This document shows positions 5,891 to 37,059 of a stretch of DNA of 44,150 nucleotides, piece by piece. The notes below the pieces were generated by a model. That model was not told the origin of the DNA, ran no database searches, and saw only the letters and a program-made list of their open reading frames with translations. This stretch comes from a virus (taxonomy: Duplodnaviria > Heunggongvirae > Uroviricota > Caudoviricetes), in the IMG/VR virus record IMGVR_UViG_3300045988_030968, positions 1 through 44,150 of that record. One strand, written 5' to 3'. The position numbers and the translations under genes are program-made. The first letter of the stretch is position 1. Each line of letters starts with the position of its first letter.

Positions 5891-8153
5891 AACGGTACAC
5901 CTCTTCCCCAGCCCACGTTAACGGGAACCCTTCAGCCCATTCAGGTAATGAGCATAGCAGGTCGCCCATCTCTTTAACCGTGTACTCCGGCGTGTCTGGC
6001 GTTTCGGCGACACATTCGTCGTGTACGTGAAGCACAATTGGGTAGCCCGCTGCCTCGACCGTCAGCAGTCCGTTAACCAGTAAATCACGGCACAACGCCT
6101 GGATAATGTTTTCACACAATTTTCCGCCGTGTGTGTACAAAGTTGTCCACTGGCGGGTGGTCTGATTTTCGCCCTGGTATTTAATGCGAACGTTAGTTGT
6201 TACACGCCCGTCCTCGTCGGTCTCTTTAGTGACGCTTAAGCCTATACCAGGGTAGGACATGATGCGCCCCGACGGCAGCTCCACGCACAGCCACCAACCT
6301 GGCACAAAGTTACCCTGTCTGTCTTTCTCTTTAGTACGCCAGATGCGAATAGCTCTGTCGCCGTTGAGGCGGACTCTGGCCCCCGCCCAAAACTCTCGTC
6401 CTGGATTTCTGATTGCAGCAATCACCGAATCTTTAAGGTCGTTCCAGAATTTCACTGTTTCCGGATGGGCCTCACGCCACATGCGCTTGATAGCATCGCA
6501 AGTGCGCCAGACTTCTTTAGGCAGCACATAAGAGGCCCGTTCATCCTTTTTACCGGGTTTTGGAGGTCGCTTAGCCTCCTGGATCCGCGCCCATTCATAA
6601 CCTCGGGCAGTGGCGGCCCATATATGGTCAGGGAACGTTCCCCGCATTGTCTCCGTCATTTTAAAGAGGTCCAGCCCGTAAGTTTTAGCCATAGTCATGA
6701 AAGCTCCTACGCCGCCTTCGTAGCCGAGGCCAAGCTCGCAACATTTCCCGACCTGACGTAGGTCCTTACGGGTGGCTTTAAGCTCAATAGGATCCATACC
6801 AAACATCTCGCCCGCAGTGGCGCAATAAATATCAATCCCAGCGCGGAACGTCTCAAGGGCGGACGTCTCCCCCGCCGTCCAGGCTAACCCGCGCCCTTCC
6901 ACGTTTGAGTAGTCGGCAACGAGCAACTTATTGCCTTTTTCCGGGATGATGCAACTGCGGACAGTCGAGGCCGTTAGTTTAGATACATCGAAACGGCGAT
7001 GCGCCCGGCCCTTTAAAAGCAAATTGATGCCAAATGATAGCGGATTAAGCCTGCGGTTCCAGTCTTCATCGGACTCCCACGGCTGGCGTACAAGTTTCTT
7101 TTCCTCGTTAGTCGGGTCGTCGTGGTAGTACCCGCGCGACAGGTTCTGCGGTTGGAACCCTTTACCCGCAAATCGTAAAGTGCGCTTTGCCCCGCCGTAC
7201 TGGATGCAACCACGGCGTCGTCCGTCTTTGGACCGTCCTAGCAGGAGCGGTTTGTATTTTGTCGACGCCGTGGAGGCCGCGCCGAGGCGCATCTCAATGA
7301 TTGTGCGCGCATCGTCAGGTAAGTCGTCGTCCTCTAACAAACCTTCGAGCGTTGCTTTCTGCGCATTATAAATATTGTAGGCCGGTGCCAGTTCCCGAAG
7401 GATTGGCAGGAAATCTTTGCCCGTTAGTTTCCCGCCGAATTTCGCGCGGGCCTCGTTTTTTAGCTCTTGCTTGTGGCGTTCAACTGCCGCTACCGCCGCT
7501 TCAGCAAGCGCCGTGTCAACAAAGAAGCCTCGGTCGTTGATTAACTGGTCCAGTTCCAGTACACGGTCTTCGAACTCGGAGTTACCCCAACGCGGCAGCT
7601 TATGGAAGACTTCACGCATCGATGTGATGTCGCTAATACCGTACTTAATAAACCAGGCCCACTCGTCCGGGTGAGTTTCAGCAGTGTAACGGCGGATTTT
7701 GTAGTTCTTTGGCGTCGGTTTAGAAAAACGCTTAATCAGCGCCTTGCCGCGCTTATCCTTCGCATTGTCAGCAGACACGCCCAACACTTCGCACAATGCG
7801 TCAAGTGACCCTGGCAACGCGTGACGAAACGCCCAAATCATCGTATCAATGGTGTTGCTTACCGGGATATCAAAACCCCAGCAGTGCTTCATGATGAGCC
7901 TGTCGAACATTGAGCCGTTGTGCCACACCATCTTAATGCGACTGTTTGGCTTCACCAGACGGCGTAGTGCTCGGTGTAAACCCCCCGGCATGTCGCTGCC
8001 GTCGGTGCAATCCCACACCTGAACAGGCTCGTCGTCAAAAGCATAGGTACAGATAAGCACTTCGGTAGTAGGGTGTTCGGCGTAAGCGTAGGAACCGACT
8101 TTCTTTAAATCGGCTTCGGAGAATGTTTCAAAGTCTAAGAACAGGTAACTCAT
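5880..8153 (-). CDS. Family-A DNA polymerase with 3'-5' exonuclease domain
   Basis: 757 aa; exo motif FLDFETFS; pol motif A VADYSNVEGR, motif B RKDLRQVGKCCELGLGYEGG, motif C LHVHDE. Confidence 0.9.
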   Translation of the reverse strand: MSYLFLDFETFSEADLKKVGSYAYAEHPTTEVLICTYAFDDEPVQVWDCTDGSDMPGGLHRALRRLVKPNSRIKMVWHNGSMFDRLIMKHCWGFDIPVSNTIDTMIWAFRHALPGSLDALCEVLGVSADNAKDKRGKALIKRFSKPTPKNYKIRRYTAETHPDEWAWFIKYGISDITSMREVFHKLPRWGNSEFEDRVLELDQLINDRGFFVDTALAEAAVAAVERHKQELKNEARAKFGGKLTGKDFLPILRELAPAYNIYNAQKATLEGLLEDDDLPDDARTIIEMRLGAASTASTKYKPLLLGRSKDGRRRGCIQYGGAKRTLRFAGKGFQPQNLSRGYYHDDPTNEEKKLVRQPWESDEDWNRRLNPLSFGINLLLKGRAHRRFDVSKLTASTVRSCIIPEKGNKLLVADYSNVEGRGLAWTAGETSALETFRAGIDIYCATAGEMFGMDPIELKATRKDLRQVGKCCELGLGYEGGVGAFMTMAKTYGLDLFKMTETMRGTFPDHIWAATARGYEWARIQEAKRPPKPGKKDERASYVLPKEVWRTCDAIKRMWREAHPETVKFWNDLKDSVIAAIRNPGREFWAGARVRLNGDRAIRIWRTKEKDRQGNFVPGWWLCVELPSGRIMSYPGIGLSVTKETDEDGRVTTNVRIKYQGENQTTRQWTTLYTHGGKLCENIIQALCRDLLVNGLLTVEAAGYPIVLHVHDECVAETPDTPEYTVKEMGDLLCSLPEWAEGFPLTWAGEEVYRYAK

Positions 8154-8173
8154 TATTTTTGACCCTTAGTAAA

Positions 8174-8195
8174 AAGGCCCAATGAAGGGCCTTAG
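8174..8195 (-). terminator. Terminator/attenuator between SSB-like gene and DNA polymerase gene
   Basis: AAGGCCC-N5-GGGCCTT hairpin followed by T-run on minus strand. Confidence 0.4.
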
Positions 8196-8212
8196 TTAAA
8201 TTGATTCAGATA

Positions 8213-8839
8213 TTAACGGCGACGACGTTCGCGGCGCGGTGCTTCATCTTCTTCGTCGTCTTCCAGGTCATCGACACTTGCGGCAACTTTAGAACCGCCG
8301 AACGCTTTACCCTCGCCAACGTATTTAATTGCCAACAGGTTAACGCCGAGGACTTTATATTTCTGGCTGAACCAGATTTCAACGCTTACGTTAGCGACGC
8401 ATCCGCTGTAAACCTGTTCACCTTCAATCTGTTCGCCGTCTACGTTGAAGTCCTGCTCTACCTGAGTCTCACCTTTTTTAGAGGTTACAATCAGCGGCTG
8501 TTTCTGTGCCTTCGCTTTGAAGTAGAAGCCTTCCGGGAAGTCTTCAAACGGATTGTCGCGCTCAGCAATGTCTTTAATAGCGCATTTATCCATATGCTTG
8601 CCTTCGCCGTAGTTTGACTTCATCCACTTCTCGGCAGCGGCTGCACCTAATGCTTCTTCAACTACCGCGTAAACAGTGTCGTAGAGTGCATCGATTTGAG
8701 CGTGGTCAGACGGCAGGATAATCGTTGCGCTGTACTGACCTTTAGTGATTGAGCCATCATCGTTTTCACGGTCTTTTTCGCGTTCAAATACGTTAACCCA
8801 TGCAGTGTTTACTTTACGCAGATTCAGTTTAATACCCAT
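8213..8839 (-). CDS. DUF2815-type single-stranded DNA-binding protein
   Basis: 208 aa; pattern NPFEDFPEGFYFKAKAQKQPLIV and YSGCVANVSVEIWFSQKY; acidic DDLEDDEEDE segment near C-terminus. Confidence 0.65.
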   Translation of the reverse strand: MGIKLNLRKVNTAWVNVFEREKDRENDDGSITKGQYSATIILPSDHAQIDALYDTVYAVVEEALGAAAAEKWMKSNYGEGKHMDKCAIKDIAERDNPFEDFPEGFYFKAKAQKQPLIVTSKKGETQVEQDFNVDGEQIEGEQVYSGCVANVSVEIWFSQKYKVLGVNLLAIKYVGEGKAFGGSKVAASVDDLEDDEEDEAPRRERRRR

Positions 8840-11638: not shown

Positions 11639-11702
11639 TGGGCTTTTATTAAATAATTAATATGGTACTATTCACATATCAACTGACTAAGGAGTAATTG
11701 AC

Positions 11703-14889: not shown

Positions 14890-14918
14890 TTGACTTTTAC
14901 TAAGAAATATGGTAAGCT
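14890..14918 (+). promoter_or_regulatory. Conserved promoter core, copy 1 (TTGACT-17-TAAGCT with TGg extended -10)
   Basis: Near-identical to 27337-27365. Confidence 0.45.
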
Positions 14919-15140
14919 CAGCCTGAGCTTGTGAAGTATGAACGAGCGACCGCGGCGCGCGGCAGGCGAAACGAGCACGTGTAGCGTGTGGAGTGAGGCT
15001 CGCTAGCGCGTTTGGGAGGCCCAAAGTCTATTGTAATTCCCACCTAAATATCTAAGTTACTGATTCGCCGTAAGTTATATCCGCAAGCTCACTCACTCAC
15101 TCTTGGTGCCTTCGGCACCACGTTCGTTTCGTTTCGCTCG
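14919..15140 (+). ncRNA. Candidate conserved leader / structured non-coding element, copy 1
   Basis: ORF-free; first ~60 nt conserved with 27366-27425; inverted repeat AGCTCAG-C-CTGAGCT, (CTCA)3, hairpin GGTGCC-TTCG-GCACC at 15105-15119. Confidence 0.25.
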
Positions 15141-15186: not shown

Positions 15187-15215
15187 TTGCACACCCCAAC
15201 ATAATAGGATACTAT
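15187..15215 (+). promoter_or_regulatory. Conserved promoter, copy D1 (TTGCAC-17-TACTAT with AATAG-N4-CTATT operator)
   Basis: 33-bp element repeated at 16599, 27238(-) and 36138(-); about 35 nt upstream of ATG 15250. Confidence 0.5.
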
Positions 15216-15249
15216 TCACTTATTGAAACAAGACAGAGGGGTGAGGGTT

Positions 15250-16409: not shown

Positions 16410-16619
16410 ATGATTACTAGAGAACAGGCTGAACGACTAATCGCGTTAATCGACACGATGGTTGATGTAAAAACCGATTCAGCAACGGCAACAGAGGAAC
16501 TCGCTACTTGGTCGCTTGAAGAAAGAGAAGCAGAAGCGGAGCGCGAGTTACTGGCGTTCATCGACTCTATCACACACACACACACAAATAAAATTTACTT
16601 GCACGCTAAGATAGAATAG
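16410..16619 (+). CDS. Hypothetical small protein
   Basis: 69 aa; contains (CA)8 tract near 3' end. Confidence 0.5.
   Translation: MITREQAERLIALIDTMVDVKTDSATATEELATWSLEEREAEAERELLAFIDSITHTHTNKIYLHAKIE
16571..16586. repeat. (CA)8 dinucleotide microsatellite
   Basis: CACACACACACACACA encoding THTHT at the C-terminus of ORF 16410..16619. Confidence 0.9.
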
Positions 16620-16627
16620 GCTACTAT
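16599..16627 (+). promoter_or_regulatory. Conserved promoter, copy D2 (TTGCAC-17-TACTAT)
   Basis: TTGCACgctaagATAGAATAGGcTACTATTCA matches D1 pattern; about 32 nt upstream of ATG 16659. Confidence 0.45.
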
Positions 16628-16658
16628 TCATTTACACAAACGAGAGGAGAGACAGAAG

Positions 16659-23845: not shown

Positions 23846-25327
23846 ATGTTAACTATGAACGGTCAGAATCAGGGTGTTAAGACAAAACACCGGGAATGGC
23901 TGCATCACTTCGATAAATGGCAGAAGGTACGCCACGCTCTGGAAGGCGACCTTATCCGTTATCTGCGCAATGTCGGGAAGAACGAACCCGACCCGACCTA
24001 CGCGGCGCAGCGCCAGGAAGAATATGAGAACGGCGCTATCTGCTACAACTTCACTAAACGTACCCTGGCGGGGATGGTCGGCAGTGTCATGCGCAAAGAC
24101 CCCGAGCAGATTATTCCGCCTGAACTGGAATACCTGTTACGTAATGCGGACGGTTCGGGTGTCGGTCTGTGGCAGCACGCGCAGGATACGTTAATGGAGA
24201 TTGACTCGGTGGGCCGTGGTGCGTTGCTGGTTGACGCGCCGGAGACCGCCGCGGCAACGGCGGCAGAGCAGAACGCAGGGTTATTAAACCCGGTCATCGC
24301 ATTCTACACCGCAGAGAACATCATCAACTGGCGACTGACCCGCATCGGTTCGGTTAACCGTGTGACAATGGTCGTGCTGCGGGAGATGTGGGAATACTCA
24401 GAACCGGGTGCAGAGTTTGAAACCAAGTTCGGTGAGCAATACCGCGTTCTCGATTTGATTGACGGTCGTTACCGTCAGCGCATTTACCGCTTCGATGCCG
24501 AAGGTGGCGCGCAGGATGAAGTAATCGAAATCTTCCCGGAACTCGGCGAACAGTTACGCGGCAAAATCCCGTTCACGTTCATCGGGGCAAGCAACAACGA
24601 TGCGACCATCGACGACGCCCCTTTGCTGCCGTTGGCTGAGCTAAATATCGGGCATTTCCGTAACAGCGCGGACAATGAGGAGTCCAGTTTCGTTGTGGGC
24701 CAGCCCACTCTGTTCATCGCCCCGGGCGAGAACATGAGCATGGAACAGTGGAAAGAAGCCAACCCTCACGGCGTGCACATGGGGTCACGTTCAGGTCATA
24801 ACATCGGCTACGGCGGCAATGCGTTTCTGATTCAGGCGGGAGAGAATAATCTCGCTAAGCAGAACATGCTGGATAAAGAGAATCAGGCCATCCAGATTGG
24901 TGCACAACTTATCACTCCGACGCAGCAAATCACCGCCGAATCTGCCCGCCTGCAACGCGGCGCGGATACGTCAGTTATGGCAACAATTGCTCGTAACGTA
25001 AGCATGGCGTATACAGATGCTTTGCGCTGGGTGGCGGCGATGCTTGGGCTGCGTGAAGCCACAGAGATTGAGTTCAAACTGAACATGGAGTTCTTCCTGC
25101 AACCGATGACCGCTCAGGACCGCGCTCAGTGGATGGCCGATATTAACGCGGGCCTGTTACCCGCTACGGCATATTACGCGGCATTGCGTAAGGCGGGTGT
25201 AACTGACTGGACTGACGAGGACATTCAGAACGCTATTGAGGACGCGCCGCTGCCGTTGGGCGCGGTTACTCAGGTAGCGGGAGAAATTCCACAGTCAGCA
25301 CAGCAACAAAACACCGCTCAGCAGTAA
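23846..25327 (+). CDS. Portal protein
   Basis: 493 aa directly after terminase; AAGAGGA RBS. Confidence 0.65.
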   Translation: MLTMNGQNQGVKTKHREWLHHFDKWQKVRHALEGDLIRYLRNVGKNEPDPTYAAQRQEEYENGAICYNFTKRTLAGMVGSVMRKDPEQIIPPELEYLLRNADGSGVGLWQHAQDTLMEIDSVGRGALLVDAPETAAATAAEQNAGLLNPVIAFYTAENIINWRLTRIGSVNRVTMVVLREMWEYSEPGAEFETKFGEQYRVLDLIDGRYRQRIYRFDAEGGAQDEVIEIFPELGEQLRGKIPFTFIGASNNDATIDDAPLLPLAELNIGHFRNSADNEESSFVVGQPTLFIAPGENMSMEQWKEANPHGVHMGSRSGHNIGYGGNAFLIQAGENNLAKQNMLDKENQAIQIGAQLITPTQQITAESARLQRGADTSVMATIARNVSMAYTDALRWVAAMLGLREATEIEFKLNMEFFLQPMTAQDRAQWMADINAGLLPATAYYAALRKAGVTDWTDEDIQNAIEDAPLPLGAVTQVAGEIPQSAQQQNTAQQ

Positions 25328-25363
25328 GTTCACATATAGCCCCGAAAGGGGCTTTCTTATAGT

Positions 25364-26440
25364 ATGCTATTAACTTTAGCACCACAGGGTTTATCTATGA
25401 GCTTACTTACATCCCTAATCAGCCACCAGATATGGCTGCAACGCACCGCATCCGGTGAAGTGAAAGACCTCGCGCCGTTTCTTCAGGAAATGAGGGGCGA
25501 AATAAAACGGCAGGTGCTGTTATTCGGCGACGACGGGCGAAGCACTGCGCGTCTGAATAAACTGTTACGCGACCTTGAAGAAGCACTAACCGGGCTTACA
25601 GGTGACTGGCAAGCAAAACTGGCAGAAGACCTCAAGGAACTGGCAGCGTATGAGGCCGAGTGGAACACAAAGACACTGGCAGCCAACGTTAACGCGGAAT
25701 TTGTTACGCCTACCGCTGAACAGGTGTGGGCCGCCGCCGAGTTTCAACCCTTATCATTAAGCGACAAGCCGGTCGATTTCACTAAGCTGATGTCTGGCTG
25801 GGGTGAAACGGAGGTCGCGCGCCTGGTAACTGGCGTTAAGATGGGTTTCGTTCAAGGCCAAACCACACGGCAGATTGTTAAGAATGTCGTAGGCGCTGGC
25901 GGACTGGCCGACATCTCTGAGCGCAACGCCGCTACGGTAATCCGCACCGCGCTATCTCACGTGTCCAACGAAGCCCGCAACGAGACGTACCGCCAGAACG
26001 ACGACATCATCGAGAAATATGAATGGGTGTCTACGCTTGATAGCCGTACCAGCACGATTTGCAGAGCCAGAGACGGAATGACATGGGAAATTGGTAAAGG
26101 GCCGATGCCCCCAGCCCATCCGAATTGTCGGTCGTGCACGGCTCCGGTAATCAGTTCCGAGTTCGACTTCCTCGATAAAGGCGCAAAACGCGCGGCTAAG
26201 GGCGCGAACGGCGGTACTCAGGTAAGCGCGGACACCACTTACTACGAGTTCCTGAAACAACAACCGGCATGGTTTCAGGATGAAGCACTCGGTCCTGTTC
26301 GCGGTAAGATTTTCCGTAACAGCGGTATATCGCCGGAAGAGTTTCGCGTAATATCTGTAGATGGTTTCGGGAATCCGCTCACGCTTAAGCAGATGGCGGA
26401 ACTCGATAAACGTGTTGCTGATTATCTGAAAGGGGATTAA
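25364..26440 (+). CDS. Head morphogenesis protein (Mu F / SPP1 gp7-like minor head protein)
   Basis: Conserved C-terminal region STLDSRTSTICRARDGMTW...HPNCRSC. Confidence 0.7.
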   Translation: MLLTLAPQGLSMSLLTSLISHQIWLQRTASGEVKDLAPFLQEMRGEIKRQVLLFGDDGRSTARLNKLLRDLEEALTGLTGDWQAKLAEDLKELAAYEAEWNTKTLAANVNAEFVTPTAEQVWAAAEFQPLSLSDKPVDFTKLMSGWGETEVARLVTGVKMGFVQGQTTRQIVKNVVGAGGLADISERNAATVIRTALSHVSNEARNETYRQNDDIIEKYEWVSTLDSRTSTICRARDGMTWEIGKGPMPPAHPNCRSCTAPVISSEFDFLDKGAKRAAKGANGGTQVSADTTYYEFLKQQPAWFQDEALGPVRGKIFRNSGISPEEFRVISVDGFGNPLTLKQMAELDKRVADYLKGD

Positions 26441-26901
26441 TGATGGGCTTTTTCAAAGTAACTGACGTACCGTCGCGTCGCGTAGTCCAGTACGCCCGCG
26501 TGTCTGGCTCTGGTGAGAATGTGGTGTTTATTGAAGATGAAAGTGTACTAGGTACACCGGTAGACGATATGCCGTTTGCGGATAAGACCGGTATTGCGCT
26601 ACCAGCGGCGGGCATGCTTTATGAGATTCCGTATCTGGCTGATGCTGGCGACGTGTATTTCTCTGAGCAACCGCAGGACACCGAACTGACAGACGGCAGT
26701 GCAACTCTCACTGTCGAAGTTAAAGCTGGTAAAGCACCATATGCGCTGACCTGGTACAAAGATGGTAAGGAAGTGGTCAACGCCCCAGAAGAGGCTTTGT
26801 CTCTGACGGTTAATGCGGTAGGGGAATACTTCGTTAAAGTTACCGATGCCGGTGGTGTGGAGGCTGTCAGCAAAGCGGCGAAGGTCACTAAGCCAGAATG
26901 A
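26440..26901 (+). CDS. Ig-like domain protein
   Basis: C-terminal TLTVEVKAGKAPYALTWYKDGKEV; paralogous motif in 29983..30324. Confidence 0.5.
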   Translation: MMGFFKVTDVPSRRVVQYARVSGSGENVVFIEDESVLGTPVDDMPFADKTGIALPAAGMLYEIPYLADAGDVYFSEQPQDTELTDGSATLTVEVKAGKAPYALTWYKDGKEVVNAPEEALSLTVNAVGEYFVKVTDAGGVEAVSKAAKVTKPE

Positions 26902-26904
26902 TAA

Positions 26905-26933
26905 AAGGCCCCTTCCGGGGCCTTAGTTTTATT
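26905..26933. terminator. Bidirectional terminator
   Basis: AAGGCCCC-TTCC-GGGGCCTT with T-runs on both strands; overlaps stop of minus-strand gene. Confidence 0.6.
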
Positions 26934-27213
26934 GCTTTCCTAATGCTTTCTTGATCGCGCTGTTTGCCAGATTTAATGGATGGTCTTCATGGCAATCCTC
27001 GGGAGATACCGCGCAAACATCCTCAACGTAATCGCGAAGCTGGCGAAGTGCTTCAAGTAACTCTGGTGCAGAGGAAATAAGTTTTGTGTTAGCCAATTTT
27101 ACTGAGTCCTTTTCCCTCATACTCATTACCTCCGCCACATAAACATCACCCGCCCAGATAGCAGTTCCGCGATTAACCCATGCACCGTCTGTACCTTTAA
27201 ATTCGTGTGTCAT
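26929..27213 (-). CDS. Reverse-oriented accessory (moron) gene, hypothetical 94-aa protein
   Basis: ATG 27213 with AGGAG upstream; own promoter (27238-27270) and terminator; opposite to flanking structural genes. Confidence 0.6.
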   Translation of the reverse strand: MTHEFKGTDGAWVNRGTAIWAGDVYVAEVMSMREKDSVKLANTKLISSAPELLEALRQLRDYVEDVCAVSPEDCHEDHPLNLANSAIKKALGKQ

Positions 27214-27237
27214 TTTTTCATCTCCTGTTCAAGTTAA

Positions 27238-27270
27238 CTGAATAGTACCCTATTATGTTGGGGTGTGCAA
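27238..27270 (-). promoter_or_regulatory. Conserved promoter, copy E (minus-strand TTGCAC-17-TACTAT)
   Basis: Reverse complement matches D1 at about 30 of 33 positions. Confidence 0.5.
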
Positions 27271-27336
27271 ACTATTTGTTTATGTATTCCAGTTATTCCA
27301 CTCAATTGTAAATGTTGGAATAAACTATTCGAATAG

Positions 27337-27365
27337 TTGACTTTTCACTGAAAATATGGTAAGCT
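27337..27365 (+). promoter_or_regulatory. Conserved promoter core, copy 2 (TTGACT-17-TAAGCT with TGg)
   Basis: Near-identical to 14890-14918. Confidence 0.45.
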
Positions 27366-27573
27366 CCACCTGAGCTTGTGAAGTATGAACAAGCGACCGC
27401 GGCGCGGGCAGGTAACGGAGCGGGACGTAAGTCCTGAGTGTAGTTACGCTGACGCGTTCGGAAGGGCCATAGGCTATTGCTTGTGTAAAAAGTAACTGGT
27501 TTACTGAGATTACGCCGTTTCTGTGTTTAAATGATAAGGACTAACGCCCCGCTTTATGGCGGGGCTTTACTTA
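27366..27573 (+). ncRNA. Candidate conserved leader, copy 2, ending in terminator-like hairpin
   Basis: ORF-free; 5' part conserved with copy 1; GCCCCGC-TTTATG-GCGGGGC plus TTTACTTAT at 27545-27573, just before the spanin RBS. Confidence 0.25.
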
Positions 27574-27589
27574 TCGAGAAAGGAGAAAC

Positions 27590-27976
27590 ATGAATCTTAA
27601 AGCAACTGTCGTAGCGGGAGCATGTTTCATCATCCTGGCTTACGCACACGGCATCTACCAGTATCGCAGCGGCTGGAACGAAGGCCGGGCGAATCTCGTT
27701 TCCCAGCAACAGCAGAAAGCACAGGCGGAGTTAGCGAAGAAAACACAACGGCAGCAGCAGGACGAATCAAAGGCCGCAGCCGCTGACAACGAAGGTAAGA
27801 CGAAATCAGAGGTGATTACCCGTGAAGTCGTTAAGTACATTAAAACGCCTGGTCGCAGCGTGTGCACTTTCGACGATGCTCGCGTCCTGCTCAAGTCCCG
27901 CTCCGTCGCAAACGCCAATTCCATCCCCGGATATGACAATGATGCAGCCGCCGTGCAAACTGGCGCTACCAAGTAG
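27590..27976 (+). CDS. Rz-like inner-membrane spanin (i-spanin)
   Basis: N-terminal TM VVAGACFIILAYAHGIY then Gln/Ala-rich coiled coil; AAGGAG RBS. Confidence 0.65.
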   Translation: MNLKATVVAGACFIILAYAHGIYQYRSGWNEGRANLVSQQQQKAQAELAKKTQRQQQDESKAAAADNEGKTKSEVITREVVKYIKTPGRSVCTFDDARVLLKSRSVANANSIPGYDNDAAAVQTGATK

Positions 27977-28085
27977 CGACGCGGACGAGGATTTAACTAT
28001 CGACGTCCAGAACGCCGAATGTGTACGGCAACTGAGGTTGAAAGTGTTCATGTTGCAGGATTACGTGAGGAATATTCTGGAATAG
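27822..28085 (+). CDS. Rz1-like outer-membrane lipoprotein spanin (o-spanin), overlapping Rz in another frame
   Basis: Lipobox LSTMLASC; Pro-rich mature region; starts inside Rz and extends beyond it. Confidence 0.55.
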   Translation: MKSLSTLKRLVAACALSTMLASCSSPAPSQTPIPSPDMTMMQPPCKLALPSSDADEDLTIDVQNAECVRQLRLKVFMLQDYVRNILE

Positions 28086-28167
28086 TTGCCTTGCATGTTG
28101 GAATAATTTATTCTTGACATGTAAATCCGGGTGGCCCGGATTCCAACGTCCAGGGGACATACTGACT

Positions 28168-28869
28168 ATGAATCGTTTTTTACGTTATCCGTTCCAGGAA
28201 GAAGCTGGGGCAGAAGATAAATCCGGCGGTGGTGACGCACCGAAAATGTTCACCGCTGAAGAAGTTCAGGCGATGATTGAGAAAGAAGTTGCCGGGCTTA
28301 AAGCCAATCAGGAAGCATTGCTGGCGGAGAAGAAAGAAGCCGCCCGCAAAGCAAAAGAGGCCGAAGAAGAACGGCAGCGCGCACACCAGGAGGCGTTAAA
28401 AGCCGCTGGTAAGATGGACGAGTTCGAAAAAACGATTCGTAGCCAGTATGACCCGGTGTTAGCCGAGAAAGATGGTCGCATCTCCAGAATGGCAGAGCGC
28501 ATCCTCGGCAGCGAACGTAAAGCGGTGTTAGGCTCTTTCGCTGGTGACTTCATTACCCCGGAAGCAGTAGACATTCTTGCACCGTTCGTTAAGACTGAGT
28601 TCGAAGGCGATGATGTGGTTACTAAGTTTGTCGGTGCAGATGGCAACGTAATCACGACTGACCCGGAACAGTTCCGCAAATACCTGCGTGAACACAAAGC
28701 GTTTTCGCATTTGATTAAAGCAAATGCAGCTTCCGGCGGCGGGGCTTCCGGTGGCAAAGGCGGCGGGGCCGCACCAGCGTTTAAAGACATGAGTGAAGCG
28801 GAGCGTTTAGCTCTGTATAAATCGAACCCTGCCGAATTTGAACGGCAACTTAAAGCCCTGAGGAAATAA
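28168..28869 (+). CDS. Scaffolding protein
   Basis: Ala/Glu/Lys-rich coiled coil; immediately upstream of major capsid gene; start at internal ATG of track ORF. Confidence 0.6.
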   Translation: MNRFLRYPFQEEAGAEDKSGGGDAPKMFTAEEVQAMIEKEVAGLKANQEALLAEKKEAARKAKEAEEERQRAHQEALKAAGKMDEFEKTIRSQYDPVLAEKDGRISRMAERILGSERKAVLGSFAGDFITPEAVDILAPFVKTEFEGDDVVTKFVGADGNVITTDPEQFRKYLREHKAFSHLIKANAASGGGASGGKGGGAAPAFKDMSEAERLALYKSNPAEFERQLKALRK

Positions 28870-28871
28870 TA

Positions 28872-29921
28872 ATGGCAATTACCACTATCGGCGATATCGT
28901 AACTGGCAACATCCCGGTCCTGGCGTCTTATATGACCGAGGACCCGGTAGAAAAAACCGCGTTCTTCCAGTCTGGTATTCTGACCCCTACTCCGTACGCT
29001 GCCGAGATTGCTCGTGGCCCGTCCAACATCGCTAATATTCCTTTCTGGAAAGCGATTGATACTTCTATTGAGCCGAACTACTCGAACGACGTGTATCAGG
29101 ACATCGCTACCCCGCGTAACGTGCAGACCGGCGAGATGATGGCGCGCGTTGCGTACCTGAACGAAGGTTTTGGTCAGGCGGACCTGACTGTCGAACTGAC
29201 CAGCCAGAATCCGCTGCAATCCGTGGCGTCCCGTCTGGATAACTTCTGGCAACGTCAGGCACAACGCCGTCTGATTGCCACCGCGCTCGGTCTGTACAAC
29301 GACAACGTAGCTGCTACCGATGCTTACCACGAGCAGAACGACATGGTTATCGACGTGTCCGCCACTCTTGGCTTCGATTCCGGCGCATTCATTGACGCTA
29401 CCCAGACTATGGGTGATGCTCTGATGGGTAACAGCGGTGAAGTGCTGGGCGCTATCGCGATGCACAGCTTTGTTTATGCGCAGGCGCGTAAGCAGCAGCT
29501 TATCGACTACATCCGTGATGCTGACAACAACACCATGTTCGCCACCTACCAGGGCTACCGTGTGATTGTTGACGACAGCATGACCGTAGTTGGTACTGGC
29601 GGTGGTCGTAAGTTCATCTCCATCATCTTCGGAAACGGCGCTATCGGTTACGGTGAAGGCAATCCGTCCAACCCGCTGGAATACGAACGCGAAGCGTCTC
29701 GTGGTAACGGCGGCGGCGTTGAAACTCTGTGGACTCGTAAGACCTGGCTGTTGCATCCGTTGGGCTACAGCTTCACCAGCGCGGTAACCACCGGCAACGG
29801 CACCGAGACTGTCGCACGTTCTGCTTCCTGGCAGGACCTGGCGAACGCCTCCAACTGGAACCGTGTGGTTGAGCGTAAGCACGTACCGATTGCCTTCCTG
29901 GTAACTGGTGTCGGGGCTTAA
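28872..29921 (+). CDS. Major capsid protein
   Basis: 349 aa after scaffold; strongly biased codon usage; followed by terminator. Confidence 0.7.
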   Translation: MAITTIGDIVTGNIPVLASYMTEDPVEKTAFFQSGILTPTPYAAEIARGPSNIANIPFWKAIDTSIEPNYSNDVYQDIATPRNVQTGEMMARVAYLNEGFGQADLTVELTSQNPLQSVASRLDNFWQRQAQRRLIATALGLYNDNVAATDAYHEQNDMVIDVSATLGFDSGAFIDATQTMGDALMGNSGEVLGAIAMHSFVYAQARKQQLIDYIRDADNNTMFATYQGYRVIVDDSMTVVGTGGGRKFISIIFGNGAIGYGEGNPSNPLEYEREASRGNGGGVETLWTRKTWLLHPLGYSFTSAVTTGNGTETVARSASWQDLANASNWNRVVERKHVPIAFLVTGVGA

Positions 29922-29936
29922 GGTTAAGCTATAATC

Positions 29937-29964
29937 GAGAGGGACTTCGGTCCCTCTTTTCATT
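29937..29964 (+). terminator. Rho-independent terminator after capsid gene
   Basis: GAGAGGGAC-TTCG-GTCCCTCTT followed by TTTTCATTT. Confidence 0.65.
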
Positions 29965-29982
29965 TACTAAGAGGATTCCTAA

Positions 29983-30324
29983 ATGGCAGACGTATTGAAG
30001 CGACGCATCACCGGCGTCTCCGCTGACGCCCCGGGTGCTAAGATTGACATGGCGACTATTTCTCCTGCGTCTTTCTCTACGGCACTTAACGCTACTACCG
30101 CAGTAACCGCAAGTGAAACTATGACGCTGACCGTAACGGTAGCTGGTGGTCTGGAGCCATATTCTTACCAGTGGTACAAGAATAACAACGCCATCGCGGG
30201 GGCCAACGCTGCTACCTACGCTAAAGCGTCAACCACTACCGCTGATTCTGGCACGTATAAAGTGGTTGTTCACGATGCGTATGGTAATATTATCTCCAGC
30301 AGCACCGTAGCAACTGTGTCTTAA
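29983..30324 (+). CDS. Ig-like domain protein (possible capsid decoration)
   Basis: TLTVTVAGGLEPYSYQWYKNNNAI...DSGTYKVVVHDAYGN. Confidence 0.5.
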   Translation: MADVLKRRITGVSADAPGAKIDMATISPASFSTALNATTAVTASETMTLTVTVAGGLEPYSYQWYKNNNAIAGANAATYAKASTTTADSGTYKVVVHDAYGNIISSSTVATVS

Positions 30325-30328
30325 TGAA

Positions 30329-30350
30329 ACGGCCCTTCGGGGCCTTAATA
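30329..30350 (+). terminator. Terminator-like hairpin
   Basis: GGCCC-TTCG-GGGCC; weak T-run. Confidence 0.35.
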
Positions 30351-30366
30351 AGGAAAGGTCATAATT

Positions 30367-30756
30367 ATGAACGACCAGCAAATCGAAAAAGAAATCGTTG
30401 AGAAAGGATTAACAGCGCCACGCATCACTCCACGGCACATTCAGTCACTCATTGCGGGTGAGTATTATTTTACGGCGGCAGACGGCGTACAGCAGTCGAT
30501 GCACAAGCAGGATGAGCTAACCAGGCTCGTTGGTCCACACAGAGAAATTGAATTTCTTACCTTTTGTGTCTTGGTATTGAAAAATGGATTCACAGTCACA
30601 GGTGAAAGCGCATGTGCCAGCCCTGAAAATTTCGATGCTGAAATTGGTCGGAAGATTGCCCGGCAGAATGCCGTAAACAAAATCTGGATGCTCGAAGGCT
30701 ACTTGCTGAAGCAGAAGTTGCTGGAGCAAAACAGCGAGGCCAATCATGGCAGATAA
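30367..30756 (+). CDS. Gp49/Gp66-family phage protein (function unknown)
   Basis: LTFCVLVLKNGFTVTGESACASPENFDAEIGRKIARQNAVNKIW signature. Confidence 0.55.
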   Translation: MNDQQIEKEIVEKGLTAPRITPRHIQSLIAGEYYFTAADGVQQSMHKQDELTRLVGPHREIEFLTFCVLVLKNGFTVTGESACASPENFDAEIGRKIARQNAVNKIWMLEGYLLKQKLLEQNSEANHGR

Positions 30757-30925
30757 TTACGTAATCCGCGAAAAGTACACACACGTCGACGTTGTTGGCG
30801 GTCAGGTGATGCCGGTTCGCGGTGTGGTAGAAGCGGATGAACTGGTAGCGGTTCAACCGGACAACGAAGAAGCGCACAACAACGGCGGTGGTACTAAGCG
30901 CCGTCGCCGTAAGTCAGAGGAATAA
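30746..30925 (+). CDS. Hypothetical small protein (59 aa)
   Basis: MADNYVIREKYTHVDVVGG...; basic KRRRRK C-terminus; below track cutoff. Confidence 0.4.
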   Translation: MADNYVIREKYTHVDVVGGQVMPVRGVVEADELVAVQPDNEEAHNNGGGTKRRRRKSEE

Positions 30926-30928
30926 TTT

Positions 30929-31441
30929 ATGCCGCTAATCGTGGAAGATGGGTCAATAGTACCTGGCGCTGACAGTTACATTAGTCTGGCTGACGCCCGC
31001 GCGTTAGCGGCTAATTATGGCCTTGAGCTACCGGAAGACGATACCGCCGCCGAAGTAGCCTTACGCAACGGAGCTACTTATGTTGGGCTTGCAGAACCGC
31101 AGATGTGCGGTCGTCGCGTATCCGCCGAACAGTCTCTGGCGTACCCTCGCACCGGAGTTACGTTAAATGGGTTCCCGGTGTCGAACAACGCCATCCCGAA
31201 ACAGGTAATTCTTGCGCAGGTAATCGCCTCCGCTACATATGGCGCGGGTACTGAGGTGCGGGCCAACTCAGACGGTCGCTCAGTGCAGACTGAGCGTGTA
31301 GAAGGTGCGGTGACCGTGACATACTTCAACAACGGCAACAGTGGCGCTACTACATCAATCACCGCAGCCGATGACGCCTTGCGCCAGTTACTGTGTGGCG
31401 GTCTTAACAATGGCTTCTCATTTAACGTGTATCGGGGATAA
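30929..31441 (+). CDS. Putative head-tail connector / head completion protein
   Basis: 170 aa; position between capsid and tail genes. Confidence 0.45.
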   Translation: MPLIVEDGSIVPGADSYISLADARALAANYGLELPEDDTAAEVALRNGATYVGLAEPQMCGRRVSAEQSLAYPRTGVTLNGFPVSNNAIPKQVILAQVIASATYGAGTEVRANSDGRSVQTERVEGAVTVTYFNNGNSGATTSITAADDALRQLLCGGLNNGFSFNVYRG

Positions 31442-31443
31442 AA

Positions 31444-32058
31444 ATGGCGAAGACCAAAACAGAGATGTTTACCCTTATCGGTGCAAATCTTCCCGATAAC
31501 ACTACCGGTCTTATTACCCCCGCGAAGCTACGCGAAGTAATGACCCAGATGGCGGATTCGCCTATTTACGCCACTCCCGGTGTTAAAGAGGTTGAAGTTC
31601 TCCGTGCCGCGTCGACCGTGGCACAAGCGCCTTCCGCAGTAGATACAGCATTGCAGGTATCGTTCGGCTCTGCTCAGGGAAGCGCATCTGACCCGGTAAT
31701 GATTAATGCCGCCGGGCTGGTTACATTCAACACCGCGGGTAACTACGCCGTTCGCATCAAGTTACAGGCTGGGCGCACGGGTGCTAGCGGTACCTCAATC
31801 CTTTTATCGCGCATTCTTCTTAACGGCGCTCAGTATGGTTCGCCCGCCGCCACGAAACTGGTTAGCGCCGACATAACAATCCCGATTGAGTCCCGCGTCG
31901 TTATTAACCCGACCGCAGGCCAGACGTTTGCCGTTCAGATTATGCGGGATAGTGCCGGGAGTGACTTCGGCGGCGTATACCCACAAGCGGCTACCGTAAC
32001 TGCATGGGGGACCGCGCCATCCGCGCTACTGGTTATTTCGAGACTGGAGGCCGCCTGA
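31444..32058 (+). CDS. Structural protein, hypothetical
   Basis: 204 aa; position in head-tail joining region. Confidence 0.45.
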   Translation: MAKTKTEMFTLIGANLPDNTTGLITPAKLREVMTQMADSPIYATPGVKEVEVLRAASTVAQAPSAVDTALQVSFGSAQGSASDPVMINAAGLVTFNTAGNYAVRIKLQAGRTGASGTSILLSRILLNGAQYGSPAATKLVSADITIPIESRVVINPTAGQTFAVQIMRDSAGSDFGGVYPQAATVTAWGTAPSALLVISRLEAA

Positions 32059-34500: not shown

Positions 34501-34525
34501 AAGGCCCCGAAAGGGGCCTTTTCTT
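34501..34525. terminator. Bidirectional terminator
   Basis: AAGGCCCC-GAAA-GGGGCCTT with T-runs on both strands. Confidence 0.65.
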
Positions 34526-36137: not shown

Positions 36138-36170
36138 GTGAATAGTACCCTATTATATTGGGGTGTGCAA
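36138..36170 (-). promoter_or_regulatory. Conserved promoter, copy F (minus-strand TTGCAC-17-TACTAT)
   Basis: Differs from copy E at 2 of 33 positions. Confidence 0.5.
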
Positions 36171-36277
36171 GTAGTGTGTTAGAATAAGTTTGCGCCTAGT
36201 GTCGCACACGAAAAGCGGGTGGTTCCCGTCTGGCGCATTTTCCTTAACCTGTAACCTCTTAACCAAAGGATTAAAGA

Positions 36278-36694: not shown

Positions 36695-37059
36695 ACGCGC
36701 TGTACAGGTTCGCCACCTACGAGTTCGTTGATAAGCATAAAATCAGAGAGTTTGATTCTATAGCCGACGGACATGAACAGGCGCTTATCGCGATGGGTGT
36801 AATCGATAAGAAAAAACGTGCAGCGCGACGGGGTGGGCCGGAATGCCCGCCCCTTTTTATATCCACCTTTGAGACGTATTGCGACATTAAGTTTACGCGA
36901 CACGTGCGCGAGGACGCTGTAGTATTGTTTGCAAGAGAATCCGTTACGTGGCAAGACCTGAAAGCCTATCTCGATGTTACGCAAAAACAGCTTAGCCTGT
37001 TCGAGATAGACATTATCATGGGCTTAGAAGCAATCTTTGAAGGTAGAAATCATGGCTGA
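36278..37059 (+). CDS. Tail assembly chaperone frameshift product (gpGT-like, -1 shift at 36685-36691)
   Basis: -1 frame is open from 36670 to 37059; heptamer G GAA AAG immediately before G stop. Confidence 0.5.

What the first reader, a model, noticed from the sequence alone, without database searches (positions are those of the whole stretch)
27545..27592. Terminator-like hairpin sits between the conserved promoter and the first gene of the late unit
GCCCCGC-TTTATG-GCGGGGC followed by TTTACTTAT ends about 17 nt before the Rz start (27590; AGGAG at 27581-27585). A terminator-like structure placed after a promoter and just ahead of the spanin, scaffold and capsid genes implies that read-through is conditional (attenuation or antitermination), which would time late lysis and structural gene expression.
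Basis: inference. Interest (0 to 1): 0.5.

Follow-up and report, generated by a model that had tools for sequence, protein, structure and literature searches.

The report
Conserved leader RNA ending in terminator hairpin
The hairpin is real and evolutionarily maintained, and it closes a roughly 200-base, highly conserved, structured non-coding leader RNA (with a second copy elsewhere in the phage genome) that all transcription of the phage's spanin, scaffold and capsid genes must pass through, which suggests but does not prove regulated read-through.

Summary
The window is a Kagunavirus (Guernseyvirinae) phage genome. The hairpin GCCCCGC-TTTATG-GCGGGGC (27546-27565) with tail TTTACTTAT is confirmed. 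At -16.5 kcal/mol it is as terminator-like as the phage's operon-end terminators. Relatives keep the stem through compensatory changes.

The hairpin is not isolated. It ends a ~200-nt untranslated leader that starts at a predicted extended -10 sigma-70 promoter (TTGACT-17-TGgTAAGCT, 27337-27365). The leader's 5' half folds into a covariation-supported structure (P1 plus a long P2-P3-P4 stem). It matches no Rfam family and is more conserved than the capsid gene. A paralogue lies at 14919-15120, ahead of the early operon.

Only 24 nt separate hairpin and start codon, so late-operon transcription must read through. Conditionality is unproven:
- The U-tract is lost in Jerseyvirus and Cornellvirus orthologues.
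- No conserved competing antiterminator fold exists.
- The leader ORF is not conserved.
- No Q/N-type protein was found.

The repeated "conserved promoter" motif at 27239-27270 points leftward, away from Rz.

Best reading: a lambda PR'/tR'-like or put-like leader-terminator module whose structured RNA promotes read-through (confidence about 0.4). Rivals are a stand-alone small RNA with a leaky terminator, or an RNA-stability hairpin.

The parts
27285..27338 (.). Operator-like repeats upstream of the promoter. TATTCCA occurs twice (27285-27291 and 27294-27300) and faces an inverted copy TGGAATAA (27316-27323). A perfect 16-bp palindrome AACTATTCGAATAGTT (27323-27338) abuts the -35.
   Evidence: 92-98% identical in Kaguna-type relatives, about 75% in the Jersey type
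27337..27365 (+). Predicted extended -10 sigma-70 promoter (called P_B here): TTGACT, 17-nt spacer, TGg, TAAGCT. Inferred transcription start about 27372.
   Evidence: Read from the sequence. The -35, the TGn and the TAnnCT -10 are kept in Kaguna (TAAGCT), Jersey (TACGCT) and Cornell (TAACCT) types while the spacer sequence varies. A nearly identical copy lies at 14890-14918. No experimental mapping exists.
27371..27376 (+). TGAGCT, a near-duplicate of the promoter's own -10 hexamer at about -1 to +5. It also forms the inverted repeat AAGCTC-N5-GAGCTT (27361-27377) across the start site.
   Evidence: Sequence. The Jersey type has an exact duplicate, TACGCT-AAC-TACGCT. A sigma-dependent pause role is inference only.
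27372..27574 (+). Predicted ~200-nt untranslated leader RNA, from the inferred start to the tail of the hairpin.
   Evidence: 94-98% identical across E. coli and Salmonella phages whose capsid genes are 83-88% identical. No Rfam family matches.
27374..27394 (+). P1 hairpin: GCUUGU, 9-nt loop, ACAAGC.
   Evidence: 100% paired in the Kaguna-type rows that have letters in these columns (24 of 31), with U-A to U-G changes. The Jersey-type rows are gapped there; read from the sequence, they carry an unrelated hairpin ACGCU-UUC-AGCGU at the same place.
27397..27461 (+). Long irregular stem: P2 (27397-27405 with 27454-27461), P3 (27409-27416 with 27443-27451) and P4 (27422-27426 with 27431-27435, GUAA loop). 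The P3/P4 internal loop is conserved (ACGGAGC / GAGUGUAG).
   Evidence: RNAalifold and pair counts: 91.9% of cells paired, covariation score 0.218 against 0.108 in shuffles (0 of 500 reach it) and at most 0.059 for slid controls. One P2 pair occurs as C-G 18, U-A 11 and A-U 2. P4 folds as a hairpin in 14 different sequence variants. The G-U pairs work only in the + strand RNA.
27459..27468 (+). Conserved motif CGGAAGGGCC. Its first three bases close P2 and the rest are predicted single-stranded.
   Evidence: Nearly invariant in Kaguna and Jersey types and in the paralogue. Present as CGGAAGGGUC in Cornellvirus FSL SP-031.
27469..27545 (+). A/U-rich linker with conserved blocks: CUAUUG, AAGUAACUG, and GCCGU at 27514-27518.
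   Evidence: The same blocks recur in otherwise unrelated locus-2 leaders of Bas70 and SETP3.
27546..27565 (+). The finding itself: a G+C-rich stem-loop, GCCCCGC / UUUAUG / GCGGGGC. It can extend to UAAC...UUUA (27542-27569).
27566..27574 (+). Interrupted U-tract UUUACUUAU.
   Evidence: Invariant within the Kaguna type but not kept in Jersey or Cornell types.
27580..27976 (+). Shine-Dalgarno AAGGAG (27580-27585) and the i-spanin gene (27590-27976), first gene of the spanin-scaffold-capsid-connector-tail unit. The unit runs to about 34496 and ends at the bidirectional terminator 34501-34520.
27385..27495 (+). 36-aa ORF inside the leader, annotated as a hypothetical protein in several GenBank records. 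Probably not a gene.
   Evidence: There is no ATG at this place in Jersey-type or L025 leaders, and the paralogue has a frameshift. It overlaps the covarying stems.
14890..15120 (+). Paralogous unit: promoter TTGACT-17-TGgTAAGCT (14890-14918), a structured RNA core (14919-15041), a linker, and its own G+C hairpin GGUGCC-UUC-GGCACC (15105-15119) with a poor U-tract.
   Evidence: BLAST gives 94.5% over 55 nt and about 78% over 145 nt. The covariance model scores 84 bits, E 3e-21. Sequence.
15187..15218 (+). Class-A promoter TTGCAC-17-TACTAT directly after the paralogue's hairpin. It drives the early operon from 15250.
27239..27270 (-). Copy of the same class-A promoter motif, oriented leftward. 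It drives the 94-aa gene (27213-26929), not Rz.
   Evidence: the orientation rule was derived from all three copies

Best explanation
The hairpin is the 3' stem-loop of a promoter-proximal leader module. Host RNA polymerase starts at the extended -10 promoter (27337-27365) and makes a ~200-nt untranslated RNA. The first ~100 nt fold into a conserved two-part structure: P1 plus the long P2-P3-P4 stem. An A/U-rich linker follows, and then the G+C hairpin with the tail UUUACUUAU.

In this phage the hairpin most likely works as a partial intrinsic terminator. Some transcripts end there as a discrete leader RNA. The rest continue into the spanin, scaffold, capsid and tail genes.

I propose that the structured 5' domain, possibly helped by a pause at the duplicated -10-like hexamer, makes the polymerase that synthesised it resistant to this hairpin and to the further terminator-like hairpins inside the operon (for example 29937-29958, after the capsid gene). 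This is the logic of lambda PR'-6S RNA-tR' with Q, or of HK022 put RNA.

Shown:
- the hairpin, its compensatory conservation, the structured RNA, the paralogue, and the lack of room for another promoter.

Inferred:
- the promoter and start site;
- that the hairpin terminates;
- that read-through is promoted by the leader RNA or by an unknown factor.
For: 1. The hairpin is real, strong and kept by compensatory changes.
2. Its stem and tail match the phage's own terminator style, including the bidirectional terminators between convergent genes.
3. Only 24 nt separate the stem from the ATG, and no internal promoter is conserved, so read-through is obligatory for capsid expression.
4. The leader is a structured RNA with covariation in P2, P3 and P4, and its G-U pairs place it on the + strand.
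5. It is more conserved (94-98%) than the neighbouring spanin (72-78%) and capsid (83-88%) genes in LSPA1-like phages.
6. A paralogue with the same promoter and core sits at the head of the other long rightward operon, which runs from early genes through lysis genes and terminase to portal and contains the terminator-like hairpin 25338-25353. The L002 locus-1 core is the same variant as the L048 locus-2 core, so the cores are interchangeable between loci.
7. The promoter's -10 hexamer is duplicated at about -1 to +5: TAAGCT/TGAGCT here, and an exact TACGCT/TACGCT in the Jersey type. This is where Q- and AlpA-type systems place their sigma-dependent pause element (PMC9371919). putL has a similar element further downstream, at +23 to +28 (PMC9378689).
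8. No recognisable antiterminator protein was found, which is compatible with an RNA-only, put-like mechanism.
Against: 1. No transcript data exist. Promoter, start site and termination are all predictions.
2. The U-tract is short and interrupted here and is not conserved in Jerseyvirus or Cornellvirus orthologues. They keep only the hairpin and its 24-25 nt spacing to the ATG. The conserved function may therefore not be termination.
3. At the paralogous locus a good promoter follows the hairpin directly (15187-15218). That looks more like a separate small-RNA gene with its own stop.
4. The 5' domain at locus 2 is of unrelated types in Bas70 and in Jerseyviruses. This is unexpected for an essential polymerase-binding element.
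5. The covariance model finds nothing at the HK022 put sites. No boxA is kept between the paralogues, and no Q/N/AlpA family protein was found.
6. TGAGCT lacks the critical A at position 2 of a -10 element.
7. Palindromes at the -35 could supply timing without antitermination.
Confidence: 0.4

Rival explanations
1. Stand-alone small RNA gene with a constitutively leaky terminator. The promoter, structured RNA and hairpin form a small-RNA gene (two per genome) whose product acts in trans, on host or phage targets or as a protein-binding RNA. The late genes are simply expressed from the unregulated fraction of polymerases that read through. Timing, if any, comes from control of initiation at the palindromes next to the -35.
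For: - At locus 2 the same kind of unit is followed directly by an independent promoter for the downstream genes.
- Locus-2 5' domains are mosaic and swap among phages, as accessory genes do.
- Conservation is extreme and exceeds that of the flanking genes.
- Operator-like repeats lie upstream of the -35 at locus 1.
- All terminators of this phage have weak U-tracts, and several sit inside operons, so leakiness is the norm.
Against: - No target or seed could be identified. The only complementarity found (27415-27426 with 27895-27906) is at chance level.
- The 3' end lacks the long U tail typical of Hfq-type small RNAs.
- At locus 1 no separate promoter serves the most highly needed structural genes. 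That is an odd design if the RNA gene were unrelated to them.
Confidence: 0.25
2. The hairpin is an RNA-stability or processing element, not a terminator. A stable stem-loop at a fixed distance upstream of the ribosome-binding site protects the 5' end of the processed late mRNA after cleavage in the A/U-rich linker. It may also protect the 3' end of the released leader RNA from exonucleases.
For: - Across three genera the conserved features are a G+C hairpin of unrelated sequence and a 24-25 nt spacing to the start codon, not the U-tract.
- The linker upstream is A/U-rich and single-stranded in predictions.
- Locus-2 hairpins also lack good U-tracts.
Against: - Within the Kaguna type the tail UUUACUUAU is invariant and resembles the tails of the phage's genuine operon-end terminators.
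- At locus 2 the hairpin is not followed by a ribosome-binding site.
- No RNase site can be demonstrated computationally.
Confidence: 0.2
3. Classical attenuation or a riboswitch. A ligand, or translation of a leader peptide, switches the leader between an antiterminator fold and the terminator fold.
For: A long structured leader precedes a terminator-like hairpin. A 36-aa ORF lies in the leader.
Against: - No Rfam family matches, even at E <= 10.
- The hairpin forms with probability 0.98 in the full leader. The best competitor requires unfolding the covarying P2-P4 stem and costs 8 kcal/mol.
- No competing pairing is conserved between Kaguna and Jersey types.
- The ORF is absent from the Jersey type and L025 and is frameshifted in the paralogue.
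Confidence: 0.03
4. DNA-level element, either a replication origin activated or primed by transcription, or a pure protein-binding operator. Under this reading the hairpin is incidental.
For: - The paralogue lies at the cumulative GC-skew minimum, beside the helicase-primase module.
- Several palindromes are present.
Against: - The skew minimum coincides with the switch of gene orientation, and there is no skew signal at 27.4 kb.
- Covariation preserves G-U pairs, which make sense only in + strand RNA.
- Compensatory changes in the hairpin preserve pairing, not sequence.
Confidence: 0.04

Closest known systems
Lambdoid late control: PR' promoter, 6S leader RNA, tR' terminator, Q antiterminator (also P. 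aeruginosa AlpA/PalpB-tB)
   Same: A sigma-70 promoter is followed within about 200 nt by a terminator hairpin that lies ahead of lysis and head genes. A short leader RNA is the default product. A -10-like hexamer sits at about -1 to +5, where Q and AlpA systems place their sigma-dependent pause element (PMC9371919). HK022 itself shows promoter, short RNA, terminator and then lysis genes after Q.
   Different: No Q, 21Q, 82Q or AlpA family protein was recognised among 30 small ORFs. The neighbouring 60-aa HTH_17 protein is too small for the ring-plus-HTH fold that AlpA has (its contact residues run to at least 142, PMC9371919). The leader here is a conserved structured RNA, which lambda 6S RNA is not known to require. 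The U-tract is much weaker than that of tR'. This phage is a virulent siphovirus, not a lambdoid one.
HK022 put RNAs (putL, putR)
   Same: A cis-encoded structured RNA of two stem-loop units lies directly downstream of a sigma-70 promoter. There are two related copies per genome, at the heads of two long operons that contain terminators. No dedicated protein factor is recognisable (PMC9378689).
   Different: There is no sequence or structure homology: the covariance model gives no hit at the put sites. This RNA is about 100 nt, with one small hairpin and one long three-part stem, rather than two ~35-nt stems with a triplex. Binding to the beta' zinc-binding domain is untested. The locus-2 copy is replaced by unrelated structures in many relatives.
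Canonical intrinsic (Rho-independent) terminator
   Same: A G+C-rich 7-8 bp stem with a short loop is followed directly by UUU. A complementary A-rich flank lies upstream (UAAC...UUUA).
   Different: The U-tract is interrupted after three U. The element lies in a 5' leader, not at the end of a unit. The U-tract is not conserved in orthologues.
Phage or bacterial small RNA genes with their own promoter and terminator
   Same: A compact unit of promoter, structured RNA and hairpin. It is highly conserved, and its 5' domains are exchangeable.
   Different: At locus 1 the unit is the only route to the downstream structural genes. There is no long U tail, no identified target and no Rfam family.

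Membership tests
Intrinsic terminator | Stable G+C-rich stem-loop | tested here: met
   8 pairs, 7 of them G-C, -16.5 kcal/mol; pair probability >= 0.98 in the full leader
Intrinsic terminator | Run of U immediately 3' of the stem | tested here: inconclusive
   UUUACUUAU: three U, then interrupted; 5 of the first 8 are U. This equals the phage's other terminators. It falls to 3 of 8 in Jersey and Cornell orthologues.
Intrinsic terminator | Releases transcripts at the U-tract | not testable with these tools
   Needs in vitro transcription or 3'-end mapping.
Q/AlpA-type late-promoter antitermination | Promoter followed by a terminator upstream of late or lysis genes | tested here: met
Q/AlpA-type late-promoter antitermination | -10-like pause element in the initially transcribed region | tested here: inconclusive
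   TGAGCT at 27371-27376 copies the promoter's TAAGCT but lacks the A at position 2. The Jersey type has an exact TACGCT duplicate. The Cornell type has none that is obvious.
Q/AlpA-type late-promoter antitermination | A Q, 21Q, 82Q or AlpA family protein encoded by the phage | tested here: not met
   No such Pfam family at E <= 0.01 in 30 small ORFs, and no such PHROG annotation in the 10 of them also scanned against PHROGs. These families are highly divergent, so a fold-level relative cannot be excluded.
HK022 put RNA | Structured cis RNA just downstream of the promoter, in two copies per genome | tested here: met
HK022 put RNA | Homology to putL/putR in sequence and structure | tested here: not met
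   Model R1 run with filters off on HK022 finds nothing on the expected strand near the PL/PR early region, whose position I inferred because the put sites are not annotated in the record. The only weak hit is a P1-like hairpin at PR' (13.8 bits).
HK022 put RNA | Binds the RNAP beta' zinc-binding domain and suppresses termination without protein factors | not testable with these tools
   Needs biochemistry or rpoC mutants.
Lambda N / nut | boxA (CGCUCUUA-like) plus a boxB hairpin, and an N protein | tested here: not met
   I recognised no boxA-like sequence shared by the two paralogous leaders when reading the sequences. No N-like family was found.
Riboswitch or leader-peptide attenuator | Conserved mutually exclusive antiterminator pairing, or a conserved leader ORF | tested here: not met
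   the ORF is not conserved
Rfam-curated RNA families | Match to any covariance model | tested here: not met
   No hit at gathering scores in the whole window. Only sub-threshold hits that match little more than the hairpin and its flanks appear at E <= 10.

The most novel reading that the evidence does not exclude
The ~100-nt P1/P2-P3-P4 domain is a new class of cis-acting processive antitermination RNA in virulent Guernseyvirinae phages. It would be functionally put-like but unrelated to put in sequence. It would load onto the polymerase that makes it, perhaps during a sigma-dependent pause at the duplicated -10 hexamer, and carry that polymerase through the leader hairpin and the internal terminators of the late and early-to-packaging operons. 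Interchangeable structural variants would exist between loci and between phages.
Probability: 0.2. Interest if true: 0.8.

Novelty: new variant of a known kind. Interest (0 to 1): 0.55.

Why it matters
Guernseyvirinae (Kagunavirus, Jerseyvirus, Cornellvirus) are among the phages most often isolated as E. coli and Salmonella therapy candidates. They encode no RNA polymerase and no recognised late regulator, and how they time gene expression is unknown.

A ~200-nt non-coding leader is more conserved than the capsid gene, is duplicated in the genome, and physically gates all transcription of the capsid operon. It is therefore the best available handle on that question.

If the RNA promotes read-through, it would be only the second factor-independent antitermination RNA class after put. 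If it is a trans-acting RNA, it is an abundant and universally conserved phage small RNA of unknown target.

On the practical side, many GenBank records annotate a spurious 36-aa protein inside it, and phage engineers should avoid disrupting this region.

Tried and rejected
- **Rfam:** searched at gathering scores on the whole window and at E <= 10 on 27300-27620. Nothing beyond sub-threshold hits that match little more than the hairpin and its flanks. No tRNA or tmRNA.
- **Leader peptide:** rejected because the ORF is not conserved.
- **Alternative antiterminator fold:** rejected. A GCCGGGC repeat that could pair with the 5' arm exists only in one Jersey-type sequence (L037).
- **Internal promoter:** the candidate TG-T-TTAAAT at 27524-27532 has a poor -35 and is not kept in the Jersey type.
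- **Minus-strand terminator reading:** the tail is poor (GTTAGTCC) and no gene converges there.
- **Co-varying protein partner:** a whole-genome identity profile against LSPA1, SETP3 and Bas70 shows the leader as an island of high identity, with no gene sharing its pattern.
- **HTH_17 protein beside locus 2 as an AlpA-like antiterminator:** too small, and it has no PDB sequence match to AlpA (PMC9371919).
- **RfaH ops and boxA look-alikes:** I recognised no such sequence conserved between paralogues when reading the sequences.
- **Distribution:** loose and stricter DNA patterns scanned against viral, genome and metagenome collections gave mostly chance matches in G+C-rich DNA. The covariance model confirmed only Guernseyvirinae-like contigs. 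There is no match in 5,426 E. coli genomes. The one 'plasmid' hit is a phage genome.
- **Nearest outgroup:** Providencia phage Kokobel2 lacks the whole intergenic region and spanin insertion.
- **Literature:** no transcript mapping of any Guernseyvirinae phage was found. One coarse RNA-seq time course exists and does not analyse intergenic RNA.
Full report
**What the window is.** Megablast of 26900-28200 against GenBank phages finds 335 records of Escherichia and Salmonella siphoviruses of the subfamily Guernseyvirinae, and the best is a Kagunavirus. In annotated relatives the gene at 27590 is the i-spanin, with an embedded o-spanin, and it is followed by the scaffold, major capsid, decoration, connector and tail genes. 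Upstream, the Hoc-like gene ends at 26901 at a bidirectional terminator (26905-26924). A 94-aa gene then runs leftward from 27213. The finding therefore lies in a 376-bp divergent intergenic region, 27214-27589.

**The observation.**
- The sequence, coordinates, ribosome-binding site and start codon are as described.
- The consensus scan ranks the hairpin first among terminator-like sites in 24000-32000: 8 pairs, 7 G-C, 5 U in the first 8 tail bases. That region has 18 sites against 8.1 +/- 2.8 expected.
- It folds at -16.5 kcal/mol. It is as strong, and as U-rich in its tail, as the hairpins that end this phage's operons. All of those also have short, interrupted U-tracts.
- In 39 distinct orthologous leaders, 99.6% of stem cells pair and two stem positions show changes on both sides, while the loop varies freely.

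**Which promoter.** Two conserved promoter types occur here.
- The first is a 32-nt motif, TGAATAGTACCCTATTATGTTGGGGTGTGCAA, found at 27239-27270 (+), 36139-36170 (+) and 15218-15187 (reverse).
  - It is the PHIRE motif reported as a 'phage promoter' in Kagunavirus fBC-Eco01 (PMC9825357).
  - Its reverse complement reads TTGCAC-17-TACTAT.
  - In all three copies a gene starts 26-32 nt beyond the TGAATAG end.
  - The copy at 27239-27270 therefore drives the leftward 94-aa gene, not Rz.
- The promoter that faces Rz is TTGACT-17-TGgTAAGCT at 27337-27365.
  - It scores only 8 of 12 hexamer matches, and the scan did not list it.
  - However, its -35, TGn and TAnnCT elements are kept in Kaguna, Jersey and Cornell types while the spacer sequence varies.
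  - A near-identical copy lies at 14890-14918.
- The start site of about 27372 is an inference.

**What lies between promoter and hairpin.**
- The ~175 nt are not a spacer. The region 27285-27589 is 94-98% identical in 177 phage records, including Salmonella phages.
- In LSPA1-like phages the leader is 94-98% identical, while the spanin gene is 72-78% and the capsid gene 83-88% identical. A genome-wide profile shows the leader as an island of identity.
- The 5' half folds into P1 (27374-27394) and a long irregular stem P2-P3-P4 (27397-27461).
  - 91.9% of cells pair. The covariation score is 0.218 against 0.108 in column shuffles (0 of 500 reach it) and at most 0.059 for slid partners.
  - One P2 pair occurs as C-G, U-A and A-U.
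  - P4 is a hairpin in 14 different sequence variants.
  - The G-U pairs assign the structure to the + strand RNA.
- After the stem come the conserved motif CGGAAGGGCC, an A/U-rich linker with conserved blocks, and then the hairpin.
- No Rfam family matches.
- The 36-aa ORF that several records annotate inside the leader is not conserved.

**A paralogue.**
- The window holds a second unit at 14890-15120, with the same promoter and a core scoring 84 bits with the covariance model. It is 94.5% identical over the first 55 nt. It has its own G+C hairpin (15105-15119) with a poor U-tract.
- This unit is followed by a class-A promoter (15187-15218) and the long rightward operon: early genes, holins and endolysin, terminase, portal and head morphogenesis.
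- In other Kagunaviruses the locus-2 core is a covarying variant. One locus-1 variant (L002) equals a locus-2 variant (L048), so the cores move between loci.
- In Bas70 and in Jerseyviruses the locus-2 5' domain is unrelated. The architecture is nevertheless kept: promoter, stable stem-loop domain, A/U-rich linker with GCCGUA, G+C hairpin, class-A promoter.

**Distribution.**
- The model finds the RNA only in Guernseyvirinae-like genomes and contigs.
- It is absent from E. coli genomes.
- Cornellvirus FSL SP-031 has a third leader type. The model does not detect it, but it shares CGGAAGGGUC, GCCGUAA and a hairpin 24 nt before the ATG.
- The nearest outgroup, Kokobel2, has a continuous portal-scaffold-capsid operon with no such region.

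**Does the hairpin terminate, and is read-through conditional?**

*For a terminator:*
- its shape and tail match those of the phage's own terminators;
- the tail is invariant within the Kaguna type.

*Against a conserved terminator role:*
- the Jersey type has UUAGCGUAU and the Cornell type UGUUACGAU after their hairpins;
- what is conserved across the three genera is a stable hairpin and its 24-25 nt distance to the start codon.

*For obligatory read-through:* there is no room for a promoter and no conserved internal one.

*On conditionality:*
- no conserved alternative fold exists. The hairpin has probability 0.98, and the best competitor costs 8 kcal/mol and would unfold the covarying stem;
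- there is no leader peptide;
- no Q, N or AlpA family protein appears among 30 small ORFs;
- the neighbouring early 60-aa HTH_17 protein is too small for a Q/AlpA-type fold (PMC9371919).

*Suggestive features:*
- the promoter's -10 hexamer is duplicated at about -1 to +5 (TAAGCT/TGAGCT; exactly TACGCT/TACGCT in the Jersey type). This is the position of the sigma-dependent pause element in Q and AlpA systems (PMC9371919). putL has a comparable element at +23 to +28 (PMC9378689);
- both operons headed by the RNA contain further terminator-like hairpins, at 25338-25353 and 29937-29958.

*Alternative route to timing:* a perfect 16-bp palindrome abuts the -35, and TATTCCA/TGGAATA repeats lie upstream.

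**Verdict.**
- The finding is real, and its core logic holds: a terminator-like hairpin that late transcription must cross.
- Its significance lies in the unrecognised structured leader RNA that it terminates.
- I rank the readings as follows:
  - leader-promoted read-through of a partial terminator, put-like or PR'/tR'-like: 0.4;
  - a stand-alone small RNA with a leaky terminator: 0.25;
  - an RNA-stability hairpin: 0.2;
  - attenuation by a riboswitch or leader peptide: 0.03, effectively excluded;
  - a DNA-level element: 0.04, effectively excluded.
- No study in the searched library maps transcripts for this subfamily.
- One public RNA-seq time course could test the model directly.

Noticed in passing
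window 14890-15120: Paralogue of the leader unit, with the same extended -10 promoter, a covarying core and its own G+C hairpin. It lies ahead of the early operon and is followed by a class-A promoter at 15187-15218.
   Followed up: yes
window 27239-27270, 15187-15218, 36139-36170; partial copies at 11658-11674 and 16615-16630: A 32-nt repeated promoter motif whose reverse complement reads TTGCAC-17-TACTAT. A gene starts 26-32 nt beyond the TGAATAG end in each full copy. The literature calls it a phage-RNA-polymerase promoter (PMC9825357), yet I saw no RNA polymerase gene in the annotated relatives, and it reads as a sigma-70 promoter.
   Followed up: partly
window 27285-27338: Operator-like elements upstream of the late promoter: TATTCCA twice, an inverted copy TGGAATAA, and a perfect 16-bp palindrome AACTATTCGAATAGTT abutting the -35. 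They are absent from the paralogous promoter at 14890.
   Followed up: partly
window 27360-27377 and 14913-14930; L037 about 2297-2311: The -10 hexamer is duplicated just downstream: TAAGCT-CCACC-TGAGCT here, and TACGCT-AAC-TACGCT in the Jersey type. The pair also forms an inverted repeat across the start site, which is a perfect 8+1+8 palindrome at the paralogue. It could be a sigma-dependent pause element or an operator.
   Followed up: partly
window 27382-27353 and 14935-14906 (minus strand): A promoter-like site, TTCACA-18-CATATT, lies back-to-back with the leader promoter at both loci. At locus 2 it could be the promoter of the early HTH_17 gene (14782-14603). Its -35 lies inside P1 of the leader.
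   Followed up: no
window 36191-36237: The tail operon (ATG at 36278) also has a leader with a branched hairpin, GCGCC...GGCGC, followed by AUUUUCC. It is a second case of a terminator-like structure between a promoter region and the first gene. The fold z-score is not significant.
   Followed up: partly
window 36830-36853: A very strong terminator-like hairpin, GGGGTGGGCC-GGAAT-GCCCGCCCC plus TTTTTAT, lies inside the tail-assembly-chaperone region just upstream of the tape-measure gene. It could be an attenuator or a frameshift-associated structure.
   Followed up: no
window 25338-25353 and 29937-29958: Terminator-like hairpins inside operons, one between portal and head-morphogenesis genes and one directly after the major capsid gene. 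Genes continue downstream of each without an evident promoter.
   Followed up: no
window 27385-27495; L001 3164-3274; L053 5282-5392: A 36-aa 'hypothetical protein' annotated in several GenBank records (for example Schulenberg_008 and Bas70_0007) overlaps the covarying RNA stems and is not conserved as an ORF. It is probably a mis-annotation.
   Followed up: yes
L174 (LSPA1) 7375-7627; window 6001-8700: Mosaicism: Jerseyvirus LSPA1 carries the Kaguna-type leader at about 95% identity while the flanking genes are 72-88% identical. Its DNA polymerase region is also 93-97% identical to the window, whereas Kagunavirus Bas70 is about 72% there. Modules are exchanged across genera.
   Followed up: partly
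window 27415-27426 versus 27895-27906: A 12-nt perfect complementarity between the P4 5' strand of the leader and the spanin coding region. It is at chance level (BLAST E 0.79).
   Followed up: no
window about 15000: The cumulative GC-skew minimum coincides with the paralogous leader and with the switch from leftward replication genes to rightward genes. Replication and transcription effects cannot be separated.
   Followed up: no
L048 (OR594183.1); H191 (CP088689.1): Likely database errors. Phage SHAK7858 is filed under Autographiviridae/Kayfunavirus, but in the locus-2 stretch I fetched it has the gene order and leader of a Kagunavirus. The 44-kb E. coli 'plasmid' CP088689.1 is probably a Kagunavirus genome, judged from its size and its two matches to the leader query.
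   Followed up: no
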